64,000 nucleotides of DNA, from assembly GCA_964016885.1 (NCBI GenBank), contig OZ024743.1, positions 50,220,001 to 50,284,000 on the forward strand, given 5' to 3'. Source of the DNA: Eledone cirrhosa. Its lineage: Eukaryota. The translations under genes and the position numbers were made by a program. The notes under the pieces are model-generated. The model was given only the letters and a program-made list of their open reading frames with translations, searched no databases and had not been told where the DNA came from. The number at the start of each line of letters is the position of its first letter. Positions within the stretch are counted from its first letter, which is position 1. Positions 10,803-48,100 of the stretch are shown one piece after another.

Positions 10803-11119
<317 letters not shown>

Positions 11120-33763: not shown

Positions 33764-34051
<288 letters not shown>

Positions 34052-34282
34052 GAAACACACAGATACATGCGGACGCACACATATATACATGAATGCATCC
34101 GCACCCAACTGTGAGTTAAGGGTGCCAACTTCACCGATGTTGCTCAATGAATGACTGGGACAGACCAATTCAGTTTGAACCAGACTGAACCAGTATCAGA
34201 GTTAAAAATACATTATGAAGAGAGAAGAAACATTTAGATATAATTAGTAATAAAATGTATCATACCTAAACTGTTCCTAAAT

Positions 34283-34370
34283 TCCTCGACTACGTAGTTT
34301 CGTGGCATAAACAAAAACAATATATCAAAGATATAGAGTCCTTGCGAGGTCTGCCGACTTATCAAGAGGA
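34283..34370 (-). ncRNA. Type I hammerhead ribozyme, U3-A8 variant (copy 1)
   Basis: Minus strand: stem I tcctc/gagga, core TTGATAA, stem II gtcggca/tgccac with a branched loop, GAA, palindromic stem III ACTACGTAGT and a GUC triplet. Cut between 34288 and 34287. Confidence 0.8.
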
Positions 34371-34873
34371 TACCTCATTTTACTAGTCTCAAGAACGCGT
34401 CTACACGACGTGAGAAAGAATCCCAAAAGGCGGAGGGGGAGATAGTCACGCGATATAACGGTCGAGAAACAGAGCTAAGCCTCTTATAACCACGAAGAAA
34501 ATACCACGGAGGCGGAGGGGGTATTCATATCGAGGCCGTAGAAGAGGTAGTGAAGAAGGCGAGAAGTATGAGTAATGGAAGCCTTCCAGTTGTCCCCACA
34601 CCTCAAAGATTGCTCGACCAGAGGGAGTTATTAATATATTTAGAAACACACAGATACATGCGGACGCACACATATATACATGAATGCATCCGCACCCAAC
34701 TGTGAGTTAAGGGTGCCAACTTCACCGATGTTGCTCAATGAATGACTGGGACAGACCAATTCAGTTTGAACCAGACTGAACCAGTATCAGAGTTAAAAAT
34801 ACATTATGAAGAGAGAAGAAACATTTAGATATAATTAGTAATAAAATGTATCATACCTAAACTGTTCCTAAAT

Positions 34874-34961
34874 TCCTCGACTACGTAGTTTCGTGGCATA
34901 AACAAAAACAATATATCAAAGATATAGAGTCCTTGCGAGGTCTGCCGACTTATCAAGAGGA
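34874..34961 (-). ncRNA. Type I hammerhead ribozyme, U3-A8 variant (copy 2)
   Basis: Identical to copy 1, shifted by 591 bp. Confidence 0.8.
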
Positions 34962-35464
34962 TACCTCATTTTACTAGTCTCAAGAACGCGTCTACACGAC
35001 GTGAGAAAGAATCCCAAAAGGCGGAGGGGGAGATAGTCACGCGATATAACGGTCGAGAAACAGAGCTAAGCCTCTTATAACCACGAAGAAAATACCACGG
35101 AGGCGGAGGGGGTATTCATATCGAGGCCGTAGAAGAGGTAGTGAAGAAGGCGAGAAGTATGAGTAATGGAAGCCTTCCAGTTGTCCCCACACCTCAAAGA
35201 TTGCTCGACCAGAGGGAGTTATTAATATATTTAGAAACACACAGATACATGCGGACGCACACATATATACATGAATGCATCCGCACCCAACTGTGAGTTA
35301 AGGGTGCCAACTTCACCGATGTTGCTCAATGAATGACTGGGACAGACCAATTCAGTTTGAACCAGACTGAACCAGTATCAGAGTTAAAAATACATTATGA
35401 AGAGAGAAGAAACATTTAGATATAATTAGTAATAAAATGTATCATACCTAAACTGTTCCTAAAT

Positions 35465-35552
35465 TCCTCGACTACGTAGTTTCGTGGCATAAACAAAAAC
35501 AATATATCAAAGATATAGAGTCCTTGCGAGGTCTGCCGACTTATCAAGAGGA
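35465..35552 (-). ncRNA. Type I hammerhead ribozyme, U3-A8 variant (copy 3)
   Basis: Identical to copy 1, shifted by 1182 bp. Confidence 0.8.
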
Positions 35553-35957
35553 TACCTCATTTTACTAGTCTCAAGAACGCGTCTACACGACGTGAGAAAG
35601 AATCCCAAAAGGCGGAGGGGGAGATAGTCACGCGATATAACGGTCGAGAAACAGAGCTAAGCCTCTTATAACCACGAAGAAAATACCACGGAGGCGGAGG
35701 GGGTATTCATATCGAGGCCGTAGAAGAGGTAGTGAAGAAGGCGAGAAGTATGAGTAATGGAAGCCTTCCAGTTGTCCCCACACCTCAAAGATTGCTCGAC
35801 CAGAGGGAGTTATTAATATATTTAGAAACACACAGATACATGCGGACGCACACATATATACATGAATGCATCCGCACCCAACTGTGAGTTAAGGGTGCCA
35901 ACTTCACCGATGTTGCTCAATGATATATATATATTTATATATATATATATATATAAA

Positions 35958-36148
35958 GGGCTTCTACAGGACTAGAACAGTTTCATTTATATGAAGTCCT
36001 CATGACATTTCGGATGATTTCATACGAATGAAACAATTCTAGTCCTGTAGAAGCCATTTATAATAAAGATGCCTATACTCCTATCAATGTATTGAGTACC
36101 TTTTTTAACAGTGGTTACCTCCCACCCCCACCCCACCCGACACGACAC
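35958..36148. repeat. Right arm of ~190-bp inverted repeat
   Basis: Reverse complement of 33764-33953; it directly abuts the PLE RT fragment. Confidence 0.9.
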
Positions 36149-37859
36149 AAACAACTTTGACATCACGATGGGCTCCAGCGACTCAGCACAGGTAGCGGAC
36201 CTGGTTGGGCTCTACCTGCTGAAGCAGACAAAAGATGAAGTCCCCTGCCTGGGCGGTGGATTATATCGTGACGATGCTCTATTCACAGTATATGACCACA
36301 GCACCAATATGTTGGAGGGAATGAGGAGGCGTATTCGCCATTTCTTTAAGAACCAGGGGTTCAGTATAGAACTAGACCCAAATAGGAAGGTAGTTAACTT
36401 CCTAGACACCACCCTAAACCTGAACACCGAACAATACTACCCTACCACAAACTCAACGAGAAACTCGTATACGTTAACGCCAAATCAAACCACCCTAGAT
36501 CCATAACCAAGGCAGTGGCGAAGAGTGTCTCGGACAGGATCTCCAGCCTGTCCGCAAGTAAGGAAATATTCAATAACCACGCAGAATATTACAACGCAGC
36601 TCTAAATAAGGCGGCACATAGCCAAAATATAACATATAGTCCGAAACGCCGGGATGGGGATGGCCCAACGGACACCCACACCTGCGTTGCCCGGGGGGGG
36701 GCGAACCCTAACAATACAGGCAGAGCAGAAACAAATAGGCACCATGTTGCCGACACCACCACACGGGCGTTGGTGACTAGTACGCTTAACCACGAGATGA
36801 AACCCAATATGTTTAGCAGTCTCAGGGGTGACGCTAACCACCCCAGGACCGACGACCCCAACCGCAGGATACGTAGGGAGGGGACCACACCACGATAGAT
36901 CTCCCAGCGCGGGCAACGACCACCGCACAGATTCGGGCCGTGTAGATAACAAAAAGCATAGCGCCCAAAGGGGAAGCAACAGTGCGGGAACCACCAGCTA
37001 CCCAACAAATCTCCAACAAATCACGACGACCCCGACCCACACATATAGGAGGAGACACAGAAAAATCACGTGGTATAACCCACCCTACTCAGCGGCCCTA
37101 AAGAACAGCTTGGCCCGATCATTCTTTGGAGCACTTGATAAATGCTTCCCGAGGGACCATAGATACCACAGGATCTTCAAAAGACACACTGTGAAGTTCT
37201 CGTATTCCACCACGAGAAATCTGGCCCAACACATAGCTAGCATCAACAGGAGTAGGCTTAAAAACCACACACAACCAGAAGATGGCAATACAAGCACTCA
37301 GCTGAACCATGTGAAAGGAGGGAAGGGGGGACCCAGAGCCCACCCAAGAAACCCAAACAGACCCGGGGACCCCCCACCGTGCCTGGGGGAGGACCACCAT
37401 GTAACACCTAACGGGAACCCCAATCTAGACACGCAGAGGTCGACCACCCTCTGCAACTGCAGAAACCCCGAATCATGCCCCCTTGGTAATGAATGCCTTA
37501 AGAAGAACCTAGTATACGGTTGTAGGGTTAAAACCCCCAACTCCGAACACCTCTACATAGGAGCCACATCAACGAGCTTTAAAGACCGCTGGTACAACCA
37601 TCGCCATTCATTCAATAAGGAGGCCAAAAGGAAAAGCACGGCTCTCTCCGACCTGATCTGGAAGCTTAAGCTGGACAGGACCGCGTACTCTCTGGCCTGG
37701 TACATAACCAGGAAAGTACCACCCGATAAAGGGGGATCTGGCATATGCAAACTATGCCTGAACGAGACCCTCGAGATACTAAGAGGTGGAAGCGGCCTGA
37801 TAAACCTCAGAACCGACTTCTTCGGGACATGCAGACACCTCAAGATATATGGACAGTAG
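36149..37859 (+). pseudogene. PLE reverse transcriptase (C-terminal part) plus GIY-YIG endonuclease, frameshifted
   Basis: FDITMGSSDSAQVADLVG, GLYRDDAL, VNFLDTTLNL, ITWYNPPYS, VKFSYS, CNCRNPESCPL, NLVY..LYIGAT.SFKDRWYNH, CKLCLNE, TCRH. Confidence 0.9.
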
Positions 37860-39165
37860 CAACACAAGAAGATGTGAACTCCCCTCAAACTATAGGGACT
37901 TCTCCAGAACATGTAGACACCTCTCGGCCAGACCTCCCTCAAGCTATATGGGCAGTAACAACACCCTAGGTTGGGAACTCCCCTCAAGCCATAGGGAACA
38001 ACCCAGGCTGAGCAGACACCATGATAGCCTAGAGATTGAATCGGACACAGCCATTATAATTTGGCCAACATCTATATAACACAAACACATTTTAATTTAC
38101 CTGATTTCTGATTTTCAATTTCCAATTTTAAATCTTAATTTCTCTTTATTAATTTGTTATTTGTTTTCTGTTCTCTTCACTGTATCACCTTATATTTATT
38201 TTTAAGTTGAGATTGATTATAACACAAACACATTTTGTTTGATTATCTTATTATCTTATTCTTTTATTCTTTTATTATTTTAACATCTTGTTCCTCATAC
38301 CAATCTATCCAACATATTTCTGACCTTGAGATTGGTTATAGCACACACACACTTTATCCTACTTTATTTGAATCTTCATTTTATTTTTTACTTCTCCATA
38401 TTCATTTTCATTACTTTTTCACCAATTTTTCATTTATTCTTTATTCTTTATTCTTTATTCTCTATTTATTATTTATTTTCTGTTTTCTTCATTTATTGCC
38501 TTATATTTCTTCATATACATGGAAGAAACCCCACCACCACCACCACCACCACCACCACCATGGGAGATGGTGGCAGGAGGGATGAAGAAAAAACACACAC
38601 AGATACTTCTAAATTGTCAGCAGCAGCAAGACATAAGCTGACCACAATACCAACAACACTACCGAAATAATGGTAGAGGTCAAATGTACTTAACAATAGC
38701 AAACACAAACACTACAGGGAGCCTCACCCCAGAAAGAATTTCTATAGACTTCTGACTGAGGAATGCTCTCAAAACTGACCAATGGGAAGTTTGACATTGT
38801 CTTGTTATTCTGTTCCTTTACCACCTTGTTCCTTCTACCACTTTATCAATTTTTTAAGCTAACTCCAACAATAACAACACTACCAACACAAGAATTGAGG
38901 TCAGATGTACCTAACAATATCAAGAACAACAACTACAGATTGGCTTGCCTCAGAATGAACTTCTATATACTTTTGAATGAGGAATGTTCTAACAACTGAC
39001 GAATGAGAGAAGAGGCCCTTTGACACTGAAATTCGTTTGTTTCAATTCATATGATTCCAGTTCCTCAGTGAAATAACATCCCAACTAGGAACTGGGCATA
39101 TCAGAGTATTGACAAAATTATACACCTCAACAACATATGTACTTGTCTATACCACACTAATTCGG

Positions 39166-39220
39166 ACTGCCTGAAGAGGTCACAGCCAAAGATGGCTGTC
39201 ACCGAAATATATATAGCAGT
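39166..39220 (+). ncRNA. Minimal type I hammerhead ribozyme in PLE pLTR
   Basis: Stem I actgc/gcagt, CTGAAGA, stem II ggtcacagcc/ggctgtcacc, GAA, palindrome ATATATAT and an AUA triplet (cut after 39215). AATAAA follows immediately. Confidence 0.85.
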
Positions 39221-39261
39221 AATAAACGAAGCTAAATTTTAAACATTTGACTTTTTATTTT

Positions 39262-39330
<69 letters not shown>

Positions 39331-45189: not shown

Positions 45190-48100
45190 TTATCTATTCA
45201 CTGATAATAGTTTATGATAGTGCACATACTTAAATATGGAATGTTACGCGATGCCTCCCGCAGCCCCGGCGGACAGGATAGAGAAGGCGTTCCCCCAGAT
45301 GACGGCAAGGGAGACGCGCTGGAAAAGCCACTCCAACTCGCGGGTTCACACCTGCGGCTGGCCAGCTCAGCGCCTATGGTGGTGAGTAGGAAGGTATCCC
45401 TAGGGCCGAGGACACCAGAAGTCTCCACTGCCAGGGGTACAACCGCAAACCTGTCGGAGTGCGACCGGTATTTGAGGAGTTTGGCCTCCTCAGCCCGACG
45501 TGCAGCAGAACCTGGGTCAGTCGCAGACTGCACCAGGTTGCGGCTGCAGAAAGTGTTGGTGCAAGTAGCATCCCAGACGAGGGGTTTGCCACCGCGGAAC
45601 GGGAAGATGGTTATGCCATCTGGCCTTTTGCCGTCCCCTCGGTCCAGCCCCACCGGCTCAAGCTGGGAAGGGAAGCCCGCAGCGTCCAGGCCATACTTTA
45701 TGACCTCGTTGAGGGCAGCATGGCGTGGGAGGCGGCCAGCACTGTGGCGACAGGAAAGCGGGTGGAGGCCGAAAGAAGAGTCCACGGTGGATCCGCAGCA
45801 ACATTGGTGTGGCTCGCAGATCCGGAGGCTGAGCCTCAAAGAAACACCGATGCGCAGGCTATTGTTGTCTAGCTGCGTACGTGGAGAAGGAGGGTAGGGC
45901 ATGGAGCCAGGCACCACTGTGGGATTTGGAGGCCGCACGAAAGCAGGCGAGGCGGTGCTGGTCGAGTTGGGGCGTGAGCCTGTCTGAGGTCAGGCTGCAC
46001 TGGATGGCATCCCAAGTGCTTTGGGGGGTCGTGACGTCAACAGGGGGAGGGACGTCTACTGGGCTAAGTCTCAGCCGGTCCCACATCTCACATGCGGCCT
46101 CACATTCTCTGAACACAGGGTTCTATTGTGTTTTGAAGAACCCTGCTGACGAGGACGCGGCACGAGGTTACCGACACAAGATACACCGGCAAAGCCAGCG
46201 AGATCAGGGACCGGAGGGCAAGGCCGCCATACCTGACAGGTAAAGTGGCCTGTTGCCATCCAATGTCGTCAAACTTCATGTTGCATAAATCTTCGGCTGC
46301 TGCTCGGATACAAGTATCGAGGTCACCGATGTGGGTGTAGCACGGAGCGCTGCGAAGGGTATAGAGGAGCTTCGGCATGGCGAAGCAGTTCCTCAACAGA
46401 AAGAGAGCTGGGTGGCCGTCGATCAAGCCCAGTCGGCTCGCGAGAGTCTGGAAATGTTGAAGCCTGGACCTGATAGTGGAGCGGATGGCCGGCGGGTGGA
46501 TCGGTGACCCGAGGATGAGGACATCCTCTTTGGGGGCCACCTGTACCTGGTGGAGAATGGACCGCACGTCCGAGACGGAGGCTGCAAAGCTCTCAGCATC
46601 GTGGCTGACATTCACCACCTCCGACTTGGCCGAGATGATATGGAGGCCGATTCCCGCTAGGGCAGGAACACCGATTGAAGGTCATGGCAAACAGTCTGTA
46701 CGGGCCCGCCCAACGTAGCATCATCCAGATACCACAGGCTGAGATGGGCCGTGATACTCCGGGCGATGTGGTCTATACCAAGGGCAAACAGGAGGTGTCC
46801 CAAAGGGTCGCCTTGTTGGACCCCAGTAGCCGAAGGTATGACCGTATCTGCAGCAAGGAGCATGCTCGGGGCTCCATACGACAAGTAGGCCAGCGGATAG
46901 GCAGAGGGGGCTGGGCTGAGGCAGGCATCGATCAGATGGTCCCGGCGCAAGCAATTGAAGGTATTCCTCATGTCAAGCTTGACAATGAGGTGCCTGGAGT
47001 CCCTGGATGCTGGTTCCGGTGGGCAGCTGTTGAAGAACTGCCTGGTTGCATGTGCGGTCCCCTCACAGCCACCGGACACGCCGACACCCAGTTGCACCGG
47101 ACTGAACTCGTCACCCAGTTCGGGTGTTATGGACCTGCAGACCACCTTGGCAGCCAGCCTCCGGAAGACATTGCCCACAGCGATGGGGCGTATGCTACAC
47201 TCTTTCTTCCTGAGAGCGGTGAGGCTAGCCGAAAAAAAGAGGCTTCGGGCGTGAGGGTCCAGTGTGCCATGGATGAGCCTATTGGTGAGCCCCACAATTG
47301 CACTCAGAATGCGGCACCCCACCTCAGCGGAGAGGGGATAGCAACTTATTGAGGTGGCCTGGTCGGAGACCATCAGCACCTCCGCTGCTGCTAGCTGGGA
47401 AGGACTTGGTGACAGACATGATGTCTGCGTCGGAAGCCACATTGAGCAAGTTGGGGTCGGGTGGTGGTATGGGTCTGAGATCAGCGGGTGGCTCAGGGTT
47501 ATTGAGTCACAGGGCAACCAGGACCTCCTCGGTAGGTTGGAGGACAGTGTCCTCTGAGGCAACCACTCTGACTGCGGCCGAGACATCACCCATGATTAGT
47601 TTACCATTTACGCGGTCACGCAAACGCTTGGCGCTGGCCTCAGGAGTGGAGGATTGGGGGTACTAAATGGTGGGGTGTGCGGCGTCCCTAGGCACGCTTG
47701 GAATAGGCGCTTGCCCAAAGGACGAAACATTGGCCTTGCCGAAGGCTGCTGTCGACCGGCCGCCCCGGTCAGTGCCAGAGCTGGGGAGGCCGAGGGCGAG
47801 TGGGGCGAAATAAAAGAGTCGCTCCCAGTCGCTGGCTCGATTGGAGTCCAGGGCGCTCACAATCGAGGAAGCGATGGCATCGGCTACCGGCACCCGGGCC
47901 GCTCTAGGGATCCTGAGTGGAATCTTCCGGAGCCGCCTGAGCCGAGCGATGTTGACCAGCGACGCTTGGGCATCAGGCAAGCTCGCTGTCTCATCTGGTG
48001 GTGTGCCAGACGGCCGTGGCTGGGCAGACGAGGGGAAGAGGCAGTTCTTGCATCTCTACGCTGCGAGGACAGTGGAAGCTTGACGTGGCAAGCCAACACA

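What the first reader, a model, noticed from the sequence alone, without database searches (positions are those of the whole stretch)
34283..34370. Non-canonical HHR core (U3-A8) with a multi-branched loop II
Seen: the core reads UUGAUAA instead of CUGANGA, so both members of the C3-G8 pair changed to U3-A8. Loop II is about 45 nt and contains two extra hairpins (CCT-cgca-AGG and TATATC-ttt-GATATA). Known: 3-8 is a Watson-Crick tertiary pair and U3-A8 is a rare, tolerated covariation, so standard CUGANGA searches would miss it. Inference: the compensatory change indicates selection for activity, and the extra domain may tune cleavage or bind a protein.
Basis: partly seen in the sequence, partly recalled or inferred. 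Interest (0 to 1): 0.75.

Follow-up and report, generated by a model that had tools for sequence, protein, structure and literature searches.

The report
Hammerhead ribozyme in Penelope-riding repeat
This is a predicted self-cutting RNA (hammerhead ribozyme) carried by a protein-free repeat present thousands of times in this animal genome; its odd core letters are a variant already in print, its long loop is predicted to be one hairpin rather than several branches, and it likely cuts only when two copies pair up.

Summary
The motif is real. It lies on the minus strand (34370 to 34283): a type I hammerhead with a U3-A8 core, one in each of three identical 591-bp tandem units inserted in a (TA)n run. 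A 24-mer of it has 7,444 exact genome matches. Core and helices I-III are unchanged at 42 of 42 sites against older subfamilies (372 of 494 elsewhere), and the helices show compensatory changes.

The multi-branched loop II is not supported: the CCT/AGG hairpin pairs in 53.5% of cells, one 15-pair hairpin in 90%. Helix III is a 10-nt palindrome, and two copies are predicted to fold as a double hammerhead. A 6-bp pseudoknot (5' flank to loop II) is plausible but barely covaries.

U3-A8 is fixed in the family (6,216 vs 13 matches, none C3-G8), so selection shows in the stems, not in a 3-8 swap seen here. U3-A8 is published for Schistosoma Penelope hammerheads. Insertion ends mirror this genome's Hydra-like Penelope elements, the likely mobiliser. 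Cleavage and expression are untested. The scan noted this family before elsewhere in this genome.

The parts
34283..34370 (-). Type I hammerhead ribozyme, copy 1 (identical copies at 34874-34961 and 35465-35552)
   Evidence: Descriptor scan; covariance model R1 finds only these three matches in the window
34359..34365 (-). Core box UUGAUAA: U3 (34365) and A8 (34360) in place of C3-G8
   Evidence: Sequence; U-A in 43 of 43 aligned copies; 6,216 matches with U3 vs 13 without
34366..34370 (-). Helix I 5' strand (pairs with 34287-34283)
   Evidence: 97.2% of cells paired, one C-G to U-A double change in 7 rows
34302..34358 (-). Helix II arm: 5-bp basal helix with one bulge (34358-34353 with 34306-34302), an internal loop, then one long distal hairpin (34344-34312)
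   Evidence: Basal helix 99.1% paired, distal hairpin 90.0% paired with a double change; energies
34345..34350 (-). ACCUCG in the internal loop of helix II: 3' strand of the predicted pseudoknot
   Evidence: 97.7% of cells paired with the 5' flank; U-A/U-G change between subfamilies; duplex -8.0 kcal/mol
34372..34377 (-). UGAGGU just 5' of helix I: 5' strand of the predicted pseudoknot; it can instead pair with the helix I 5' strand (inactive fold)
   Evidence: unchanged at 6 of 6 sites against older subfamilies
34289..34298 (-). 10-nt palindrome forming helix III, predicted to pair between two copies (double hammerhead)
   Evidence: Palindrome kept in three different sequences across subfamilies (double changes in 11 and 4 rows); co-fold minimum is the double hammerhead
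34287..34288 (-). Predicted cleavage site, after GUC (C17 = 34288); equivalent sites at 34879 and 35470 give 591-nt monomers
   Evidence: Hammerhead consensus; coordinates
34214..34287 (-). Hairpin predicted right after the cut, which would sequester the helix I 3' strand in the circular monomer; the family's 'short' insertion end (unit base 431 = window 34208) lies just beyond it
   Evidence: Circular fold; ends mapped
34048..35923 (-). Tandem array of a non-coding 591-bp unit (three full units plus a 103-bp 5'-truncated one), single arm, ending at the 'long' end against (TA)n
   Evidence: units identical; no ORF over 86 aa in the unit
33954..34047 (.). (TA)n target run left of the array; a second TA run lies at 35923-35955
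36150..39266 (+). Neighbouring 5'-truncated, frameshifted Penelope-like element with Hydra-clade motifs (RT, CxCX5C linker, GIY-YIG-type endonuclease) and its own canonical hammerhead at 39166-39220; a separate element, representing the candidate mobilising family
   Evidence: motifs in the full-length genomic copy L112; clade definition in PMC8557442 section 11

Best explanation
The motif is a type I hammerhead ribozyme with a U3-A8 core, one per unit of a young, protein-free 591-bp tandem repeat, and it likely cuts read-through RNA of the array into unit-length pieces that a Penelope-type (likely Hydra-clade) reverse transcriptase copies into (TA)n runs. SHOWN from sequence and comparison: the core, helices I-III, the palindromic helix III, one long hairpin extending helix II, constraint on the motif, high copy number, TA targeting and two fixed insertion ends. 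PREDICTED by folding: a single copy prefers an inactive fold; two copies swap strands through the 10-bp palindrome to build a double hammerhead in which each core cuts the other copy's GUC; after cutting and joining, the 591-nt monomer folds into a stable shape that hides the helix I strand. INFERRED: a 6-bp pseudoknot between the 5' flank and the internal loop of helix II docks helices I and II and frees helix I from a competing hairpin; cutting is slow or incomplete, so multimers as well as monomers serve as templates; U3-A8 is an inherited, tolerated variant rather than a recent compensatory event.
For: Constraint: core and helices I-III unchanged at 42 of 42 sites vs 372 of 494 non-ribozyme sites against older subfamilies picked by a tail motif. 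Covariation on 43 rows: helix I 97.2%, II 99.1%, III 98.1% paired, each with double changes; slid controls 33-50%. Core point mutants are sporadic: 35 G5 mutants and 13 U3 mutants, none shared between units of an array, against 2 of 9 loci at a control site (p = 0.02). Dimer: the co-fold minimum of two copies is the double hammerhead, -57.3 vs 2 x -21.8 kcal/mol; Penelope hammerheads with palindromic helix III are described as dimer-acting (PMC4209133). Strand: the circular monomer folds at -174.9 kcal/mol (z = -4.65, 40 shuffles) on the ribozyme strand and -133.6 on the other. Mobiliser: 22 of 22 scorable two-armed insertions among 40 loci have one short and one long end in TA runs; 8 of 8 scorable two-armed insertions of the genome's Hydra-like element show the same asymmetry; Hydra elements target (TA)n (PMC8557442 section 11). 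Multimer template: in L167 both arms share private markers unit by unit for the last two units.
Against: No cleavage, transcript or circle was observed. The monomer hammerhead fold is not the minimum-energy fold (helix I pair probability about 0.01 with flanks). Double changes are few independent events (about one per pair), and the young-family rows were picked by exact matches inside the motif. Pseudoknot: 0 of 44 mutants of its first G and 1 of 33 mutants of its middle G are compensated, and its conservation alone is not significant (11 of 12 sites, p = 0.16). A within-family test of shared versus private changes was not significant (p = 0.23). No autonomous element sharing the unit's sequence was found: no hit in 29 other Hydra-like loci or three long copies, so the mobilising family rests on insertion anatomy only. 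Eight of nine Xenopus retrozyme dimers did not cleave in vitro (bioRxiv 10.64898/2026.07.22.740005), so an intact motif need not cut efficiently.
Confidence: 0.7

Rival explanations
1. The ribozyme works as a monomer: the pseudoknot and a 3-bp helix III with a tetraloop are enough, and the palindrome is incidental.
For: A monomer fold with A15.1-U16.1, C-G and U-A pairs and a 4-nt loop can be drawn (-16.1 kcal/mol). Pseudoknots between stems I and II give fast monomeric hammerheads (PMC3088659). Invertebrate retrozyme hammerheads cut as monomers (coral about 0.8/min, mussel about 0.1/min; PMC7229834).
Against: The four central bases change in pairs and stay self-complementary in three different sequences (double changes in 11 and 4 rows), which a mere loop would not require. 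The monomer fold is 5.7 kcal/mol above the minimum.
Confidence: 0.15
2. The unit is the pseudo-LTR end of an autonomous Penelope element not sampled here, and the arrays are its truncated by-products rather than a self-standing retrozyme.
For: Xenopus retrozymes are homologous to Penelope pLTRs (bioRxiv 10.64898/2026.07.22.740005). Only about 150 loci were read. In L101 a unit fragment is joined without a TA run to the 3' region of a Penelope-like ORF.
Against: In the loci read, units are preceded by other units or by inverted unit fragments, not by a shared ORF. Head-to-tail arrays of up to about 8 whole 591-bp units occur. The hammerheads seen next to Penelope-like ORFs had C3-G8 cores and unrelated stems.
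Confidence: 0.1
3. The motif is kept for a structural role (recognition by the reverse transcriptase, dimerisation, or a promoter part) and rarely or never cleaves.
For: Low in vitro activity of Penelope hammerheads (PMC4209133) and of 8 of 9 Xenopus dimers (bioRxiv 10.64898/2026.07.22.740005). L167 shows a template that was continuous across two ribozyme sites.
Against: All 13 core nucleotides, including the GUC site, are unchanged across subfamilies that differ by 25% elsewhere. U3-A8 cores are reported active in vitro (PMC3088659 section 8).
Confidence: 0.05

Closest known systems
Penelope-element hammerheads, including the U3-A8 variant of Schistosoma mansoni Cercyon elements and the Drosophila virilis variant (Cervera and de la Pena 2014, PMC4209133; parts 1-2 of 4 read)
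   Same: Type I; U3-A8 core; short helix I (5 bp); enlarged helix II; bulge within helix II and small palindromic helix III as in the D. virilis form; G10.1-C11.1 kept; predicted dimer action.
   Different: The helix II arm is 57 nt with a 15-pair distal hairpin, against 7-8 bp described there. No unpaired base between positions 9 and 10.1. A base-paired contact between the 5' flank and loop II is predicted here. It sits in whole-unit non-coding arrays rather than at ORF ends.
Animal non-LTR retrozymes (Cervera and de la Pena 2020, PMC7229834, passages read; Li, Clavereau and Pollet 2026, bioRxiv 10.64898/2026.07.22.740005, parts 1-3 of 5 read)
   Same: Non-coding tandem units, one type I hammerhead per unit, GC below 50% (42%), thousands of copies, well-folded predicted circle, co-occurrence with Penelope elements.
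   Different: Unit of 591-595 bp (150-450 typical in the 2020 paper, within the 51-972 range of the 2026 preprint). Non-canonical core. Penelope-style inverted arms and a one-sided 160-bp tail. No autonomous element with the same end found. Expression untested.
Pseudoknotted hammerheads and U3-A8 core variants of bacteria, phages and the human C10orf118 intron (Perreault et al. 2011, PMC3088659; passages and section 8 read)
   Same: U3-A8 covariation; a helix (pseudoknot) docking stems I and II, predicted in about 40% of hammerheads there.
   Different: Here the partner strand lies in an internal loop of a long helix II in a repetitive animal retroelement, and the pseudoknot has little covariation support.
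Hydra clade of Penelope-like elements (Craig et al. 2021, PMC8557442; passages and section 11 read)
   Same: (TA)n targeting, inverted 5'-truncated arm, a tail on one end only. The neighbouring element has the RWK, DKT, CxCX5C, CxxC and CxH motifs.
   Different: The repeat encodes no protein and shares no detected sequence with the Hydra-like family sampled. Its tail is about 160 bp against the 30-40 bp described.

Membership tests
Hammerhead ribozyme, type I | Core boxes (3-9, 12-15.1) and UH cleavage site, with a Watson-Crick 3-8 pair | tested here: met
   UUGAUAA, GAAA, GUC; U3-A8 in 43 of 43 rows; published variant (PMC3088659, PMC4209133)
Hammerhead ribozyme, type I | Helices I, II and III around the core, with the ends in helix I | tested here: met
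   97-99% paired, with double changes in each helix
Hammerhead ribozyme, type I | Tertiary contact between helices I and II | tested here: inconclusive
   6-bp pseudoknot 97.7% paired, but one subfamily-level U-A/U-G change only; 0 of 44 and 1 of 33 mutants compensated
Hammerhead ribozyme, type I | Self-cleavage | not testable with these tools
   Needs in vitro transcription
Penelope-associated dimeric hammerhead | Short palindromic helix III allowing a double-hammerhead fold | tested here: met
   Palindrome kept across three sequences; co-fold minimum is the double hammerhead
Animal non-LTR retrozyme | Non-coding tandem repeats with a type I hammerhead in every unit | tested here: met
Animal non-LTR retrozyme | Dispersed, high-copy, mobile | tested here: met
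   7,444 matches; dispersed insertions in TA runs
Animal non-LTR retrozyme | Expressed as linear and circular unit-length RNA | not testable with these tools
   No run on record as RNA was listed
Pseudo-LTR of an autonomous Penelope-like element | Same sequence at the end of an RT/GIY-YIG ORF | tested here: inconclusive
   No unit match in 29 other Hydra-like loci or three long copies; other Penelope families were not surveyed genome-wide
   CCT/AGG helix 53.5% paired; -3.2 vs -11.0 kcal/mol

The most novel reading that the evidence does not exclude
The long hairpin is a strut that presents a pseudoknot strand, making this a switchable, deliberately slow double hammerhead. The 5' flank toggles between blocking helix I and docking onto loop II, the weaker U3-A8 pair lowers the cut rate further, and as a result Penelope reverse transcriptase is fed multimeric RNAs that it primes at two fixed sites, writing both arms of an insertion from one RNA molecule. 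Thousands of young copies would then be a readable record of ribozyme-gated Penelope retrotransposition.
Probability: 0.25. Interest if true: 0.55.

Novelty: new variant of a known kind. Interest (0 to 1): 0.3.

Why it matters
On its own the U3-A8 core is a known, tolerated variant, so the headline is modest. The value is as a test system. What hammerheads do in Penelope elements is still described as unclear (PMC8557442), and this family offers thousands of near-identical copies, several subfamilies with covarying stems, and insertions whose two arms can be compared base by base. It also shows that animal hammerhead counts based on CUGANGA with a short loop II miss whole families of this size.

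Tried and rejected
Multi-branched loop II: rejected.

A C3-G8 ancestor or sister subfamily: none among 13 non-U3 matches. The two matches to a looser C3-G8 pattern have no hammerhead second half or real similarity to the unit.

Idea that breaking the pseudoknot leaves a site uncut and yields dimer templates: two arrays (L107, L113) carry a mutation of its first G in alternate units. A control site also gave an alternating array with no ribozyme defect (L133), and the L107 pattern is not strictly periodic, so the test is inconclusive and DNA-level duplication is not excluded.

Shared-versus-private change test within the young family: p = 0.23. Its per-site form gave p = 0.03 but is biased, because loci were picked by matches inside the motif.

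Expression: no RNA holder listed. Two runs of unrecorded kind gave a single 620-621-nt contig closing on itself after 591 bases; a collapsed DNA repeat does the same, so it was not used.

DNA search of the genome with the motif returned nothing; the tool skips very common words, so this is uninformative. A covariance-model search of the whole genome was not available, so distant families were not reached. Rfam: no hammerhead hit. Pfam on the neighbour's three frames: one sub-threshold maturase hit. The about 0.9-kb insert shared by L076 and L079 was considered as an autonomous partner; no match to the Penelope-like protein was found there.

Lunse et al. 2017 and Przybilski and Hammann 2007 are not held; they were seen only as references. 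Supplements of the cited papers were not read and may show similar long-helix-II variants.

Full report
Observation. The motif is on the minus strand, 34370 to 34283. A descriptor scan of both strands of the 64-kb window that allowed any Watson-Crick 3-8 pair gave seven rows: three identical U3-A8 copies (34283-34370, 34874-34961, 35465-35552), two convincing canonical hammerheads (10892-10962 and 39166-39220, plus strand) and two weak rows. The anatomy is helix I of 5 bp, core UUGAUAA, a 57-nt helix II arm, GAAA, a 10-nt palindrome and GUC, with the predicted cut after 34288. Rfam lists no hammerhead in the window at E up to 1 or locally at E up to 10; it also misses the two canonical ones.

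Context. The three copies lie in identical 591-bp head-to-tail units (34048-35923) between (TA)n runs. The unit has no ORF over 86 aa. The genome is a 3.0-Gb animal assembly. A 24-mer from the 3' half of the motif has 7,444 exact matches, against 0 for the reversed control. The first 30 matches were fetched (overlapping loci); they are single, tandem or back-to-back inverted copies at 87-100% identity. A tail motif from a diverged fragment gave 141 matches and led to older subfamilies 69-81% identical to the unit.

The core variant. With fixed flanks, 6,216 matches have U3 (99 of the first 100 listed have A8) and 13 have another base at 3. All 13 keep A8: 7 C, 4 G, 2 A. A looser C3-G8 pattern gave 2 matches, neither a relative. 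U3-A8 is therefore fixed in this lineage, and the swap cannot be seen happening here. It is in print. Perreault et al. report natural U3-A8 hammerheads and cite in vitro activity (PMC3088659, section 8 read). Cervera and de la Pena report about 1,300 U3-A8 minimal hammerheads related to Cercyon Penelope elements in Schistosoma mansoni (PMC4209133, parts 1-2 of 4 read).

Selection on the ribozyme. I aligned 43 of 66 distinct motif sequences. I dropped chimeric or truncated rows, rows that had been picked for a mutated core, and near-duplicates. Helix I is paired in 97.2% of cells (C-G to U-A in 7 rows), helix II in 99.1% (U-A to C-G in 4 rows) and the helix III palindrome in 98.1% (double changes in 11 and 4 rows); slid controls give 33-50%. 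These are few independent events, roughly one per pair, and the young rows were found by exact matches inside the motif. A less biased test used 77 alignment pieces from 42 loci picked by the tail motif. The majority base equals the window base at 42 of 42 core and helix I-III sites against 372 of 494 sites outside the ribozyme (Fisher p = 2e-5). Core point mutants are scattered singles: none of 35 G5 mutants or 13 U3 mutants is shared within an array, against 2 of 9 loci at one control site (p = 0.02; small numbers). A shared-versus-private test in 34 young loci was not significant (p = 0.23).

Loop II. The 46 nt inside the basal helix II fold as one hairpin (-11.0 kcal/mol) rather than two (-3.2). 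In the window copy its 13 pairs have probabilities 0.98-1.00. Across the alignment the 15-pair hairpin is 90.0% paired, with one double change and eight one-sided changes. Several other hammerhead families met in the fetched loci also have extended helix II arms, of 13-36 nt in that scan, so this is a long case of a local habit.

Possible pseudoknot. The same flank can pair with the helix I 5' strand (-4.4), as in the minimum-energy fold with flanks, so the pseudoknot would also free helix I. Against it: 0 of 44 and 1 of 33 genome-wide mutants at two of its positions are compensated, and 11 of 12 conserved sites is not significant (p = 0.16). Such pseudoknots are common in hammerheads generally (PMC3088659 passages). 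Two searches showed no report of one in an animal Penelope hammerhead, but Lunse et al. 2017 was not held and supplements were not read.

Dimer and circle (predicted). A single 88-nt copy folds at -21.8 kcal/mol in an inactive register; the monomer hammerhead is -16.1. Two copies co-fold at -57.3, and the minimum is exactly the double hammerhead, with the 10-bp palindrome paired between copies and helix I strands exchanged. The cut-to-cut 591-nt monomer, folded as a circle, gives -174.9 kcal/mol (z = -4.65 against 40 shuffles) and -133.6 on the opposite strand. In it the helix I 3' strand is held in a hairpin ending just before the family's short insertion end. Expression could not be tested.

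How it moves (inferred). Of 40 young loci, 22 have two arms on opposite strands ending in TA runs, and all 22 have one short end (unit base 431) and one long end (base 591). Seventeen show one end and one is compound (L024 and L027 lie close together and may be a local duplication). The window's array is single-armed with the long end. The neighbour at 36150-39266 is a truncated copy of an abundant Penelope-like family (142 scored of 67,793 candidates). A full-length copy has the RWK, DKT, CxCX5C, CxxC and CxH motifs that define the TA-targeting Hydra clade (PMC8557442 section 11). Its two-armed insertions show the same asymmetry in 8 of 8 scorable cases, and one more had a single arm scored. 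No sequence is shared between that family and the unit in the loci read, so Hydra-type machinery is the likely but unproven mobiliser. In L167 the last unit of both arms shares one private change and the second-last shares four. That fits both arms being copied from one RNA that was continuous across two ribozyme sites; conversion between inverted repeats is the alternative. Alternating units in L107, L113 and L133 hint at dimer templates but are not clean.

Comparison and verdict. It works like, and by every feature testable here is, a Penelope-type type I hammerhead in an animal non-LTR retrozyme (PMC7229834 passages; bioRxiv 10.64898/2026.07.22.740005 parts 1-3 of 5). New in degree: a 57-nt helix II arm with a possible pseudoknot, combined with U3-A8. 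Earlier notes of this scan describe the same family, the two ends and the pseudoknot at other places in this genome. I had reached these readings before those look-ups (note; ends), and I do not count them as support. Interest 0.3.

Noticed in passing
window 10892-10962 (+): Canonical C3-G8 type I hammerhead with a 39-nt helix II arm, ending about 25 bases before a TA run; relatives in L106 and L147 suggest another Penelope-type family.
   Followed up: partly
window 39166-39220 (+): Canonical minimal hammerhead with a TA-palindromic helix III at the 3' end of the Hydra-like element.
   Followed up: partly
window 33764-33960 and 35949-36148: A 198-bp inverted duplication (4 differences) brackets the array; each copy starts at the TA run and holds a fold-back and a degenerate hammerhead-like motif of another repeat family. 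It is more alike than the adjacent Penelope copy is to its relatives; origin unexplained.
   Followed up: partly
L167 (G000:C4:237895500-237904500): Two-armed insertion whose arms share private markers unit by unit from the 3' end for two units, then diverge; suggests one multimeric RNA template and later template switching.
   Followed up: partly
L107, L113, L133: Arrays with markers in alternate units (1182-1190-bp period): dimer template or later two-unit duplication.
   Followed up: partly
L076:538-1437 and L079: The same about 0.9-kb element is inserted at the short-end TA site of older unit copies at two loci.
   Followed up: no
L101:4200-4610 and L014:775-1170: Chimeric insertions: an older unit fragment joined without a TA run to the 3' region of a Penelope-like ORF (L101), and an older-subfamily tail joined to young units (L014); possible template switches.
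   Followed up: no
window unit bases about 118-130 and 199-210 (34521-34509, 34440-34429): A GC-box-like 12-mer occurs twice in the unit and, with the stretch between, is conserved in older subfamilies; possible internal promoter.
   Followed up: no
window 45198-47595 (-): Fragmented non-LTR retrotransposon ORFs (RT motifs) in a GC-rich stretch.
   Followed up: no
loci L001-L152: At least ten further hammerhead families, nearly all C3-G8 with palindromic helix III, turned up in the flanks of the fetched loci; this genome is rich in Penelope-type hammerheads.
   Followed up: no
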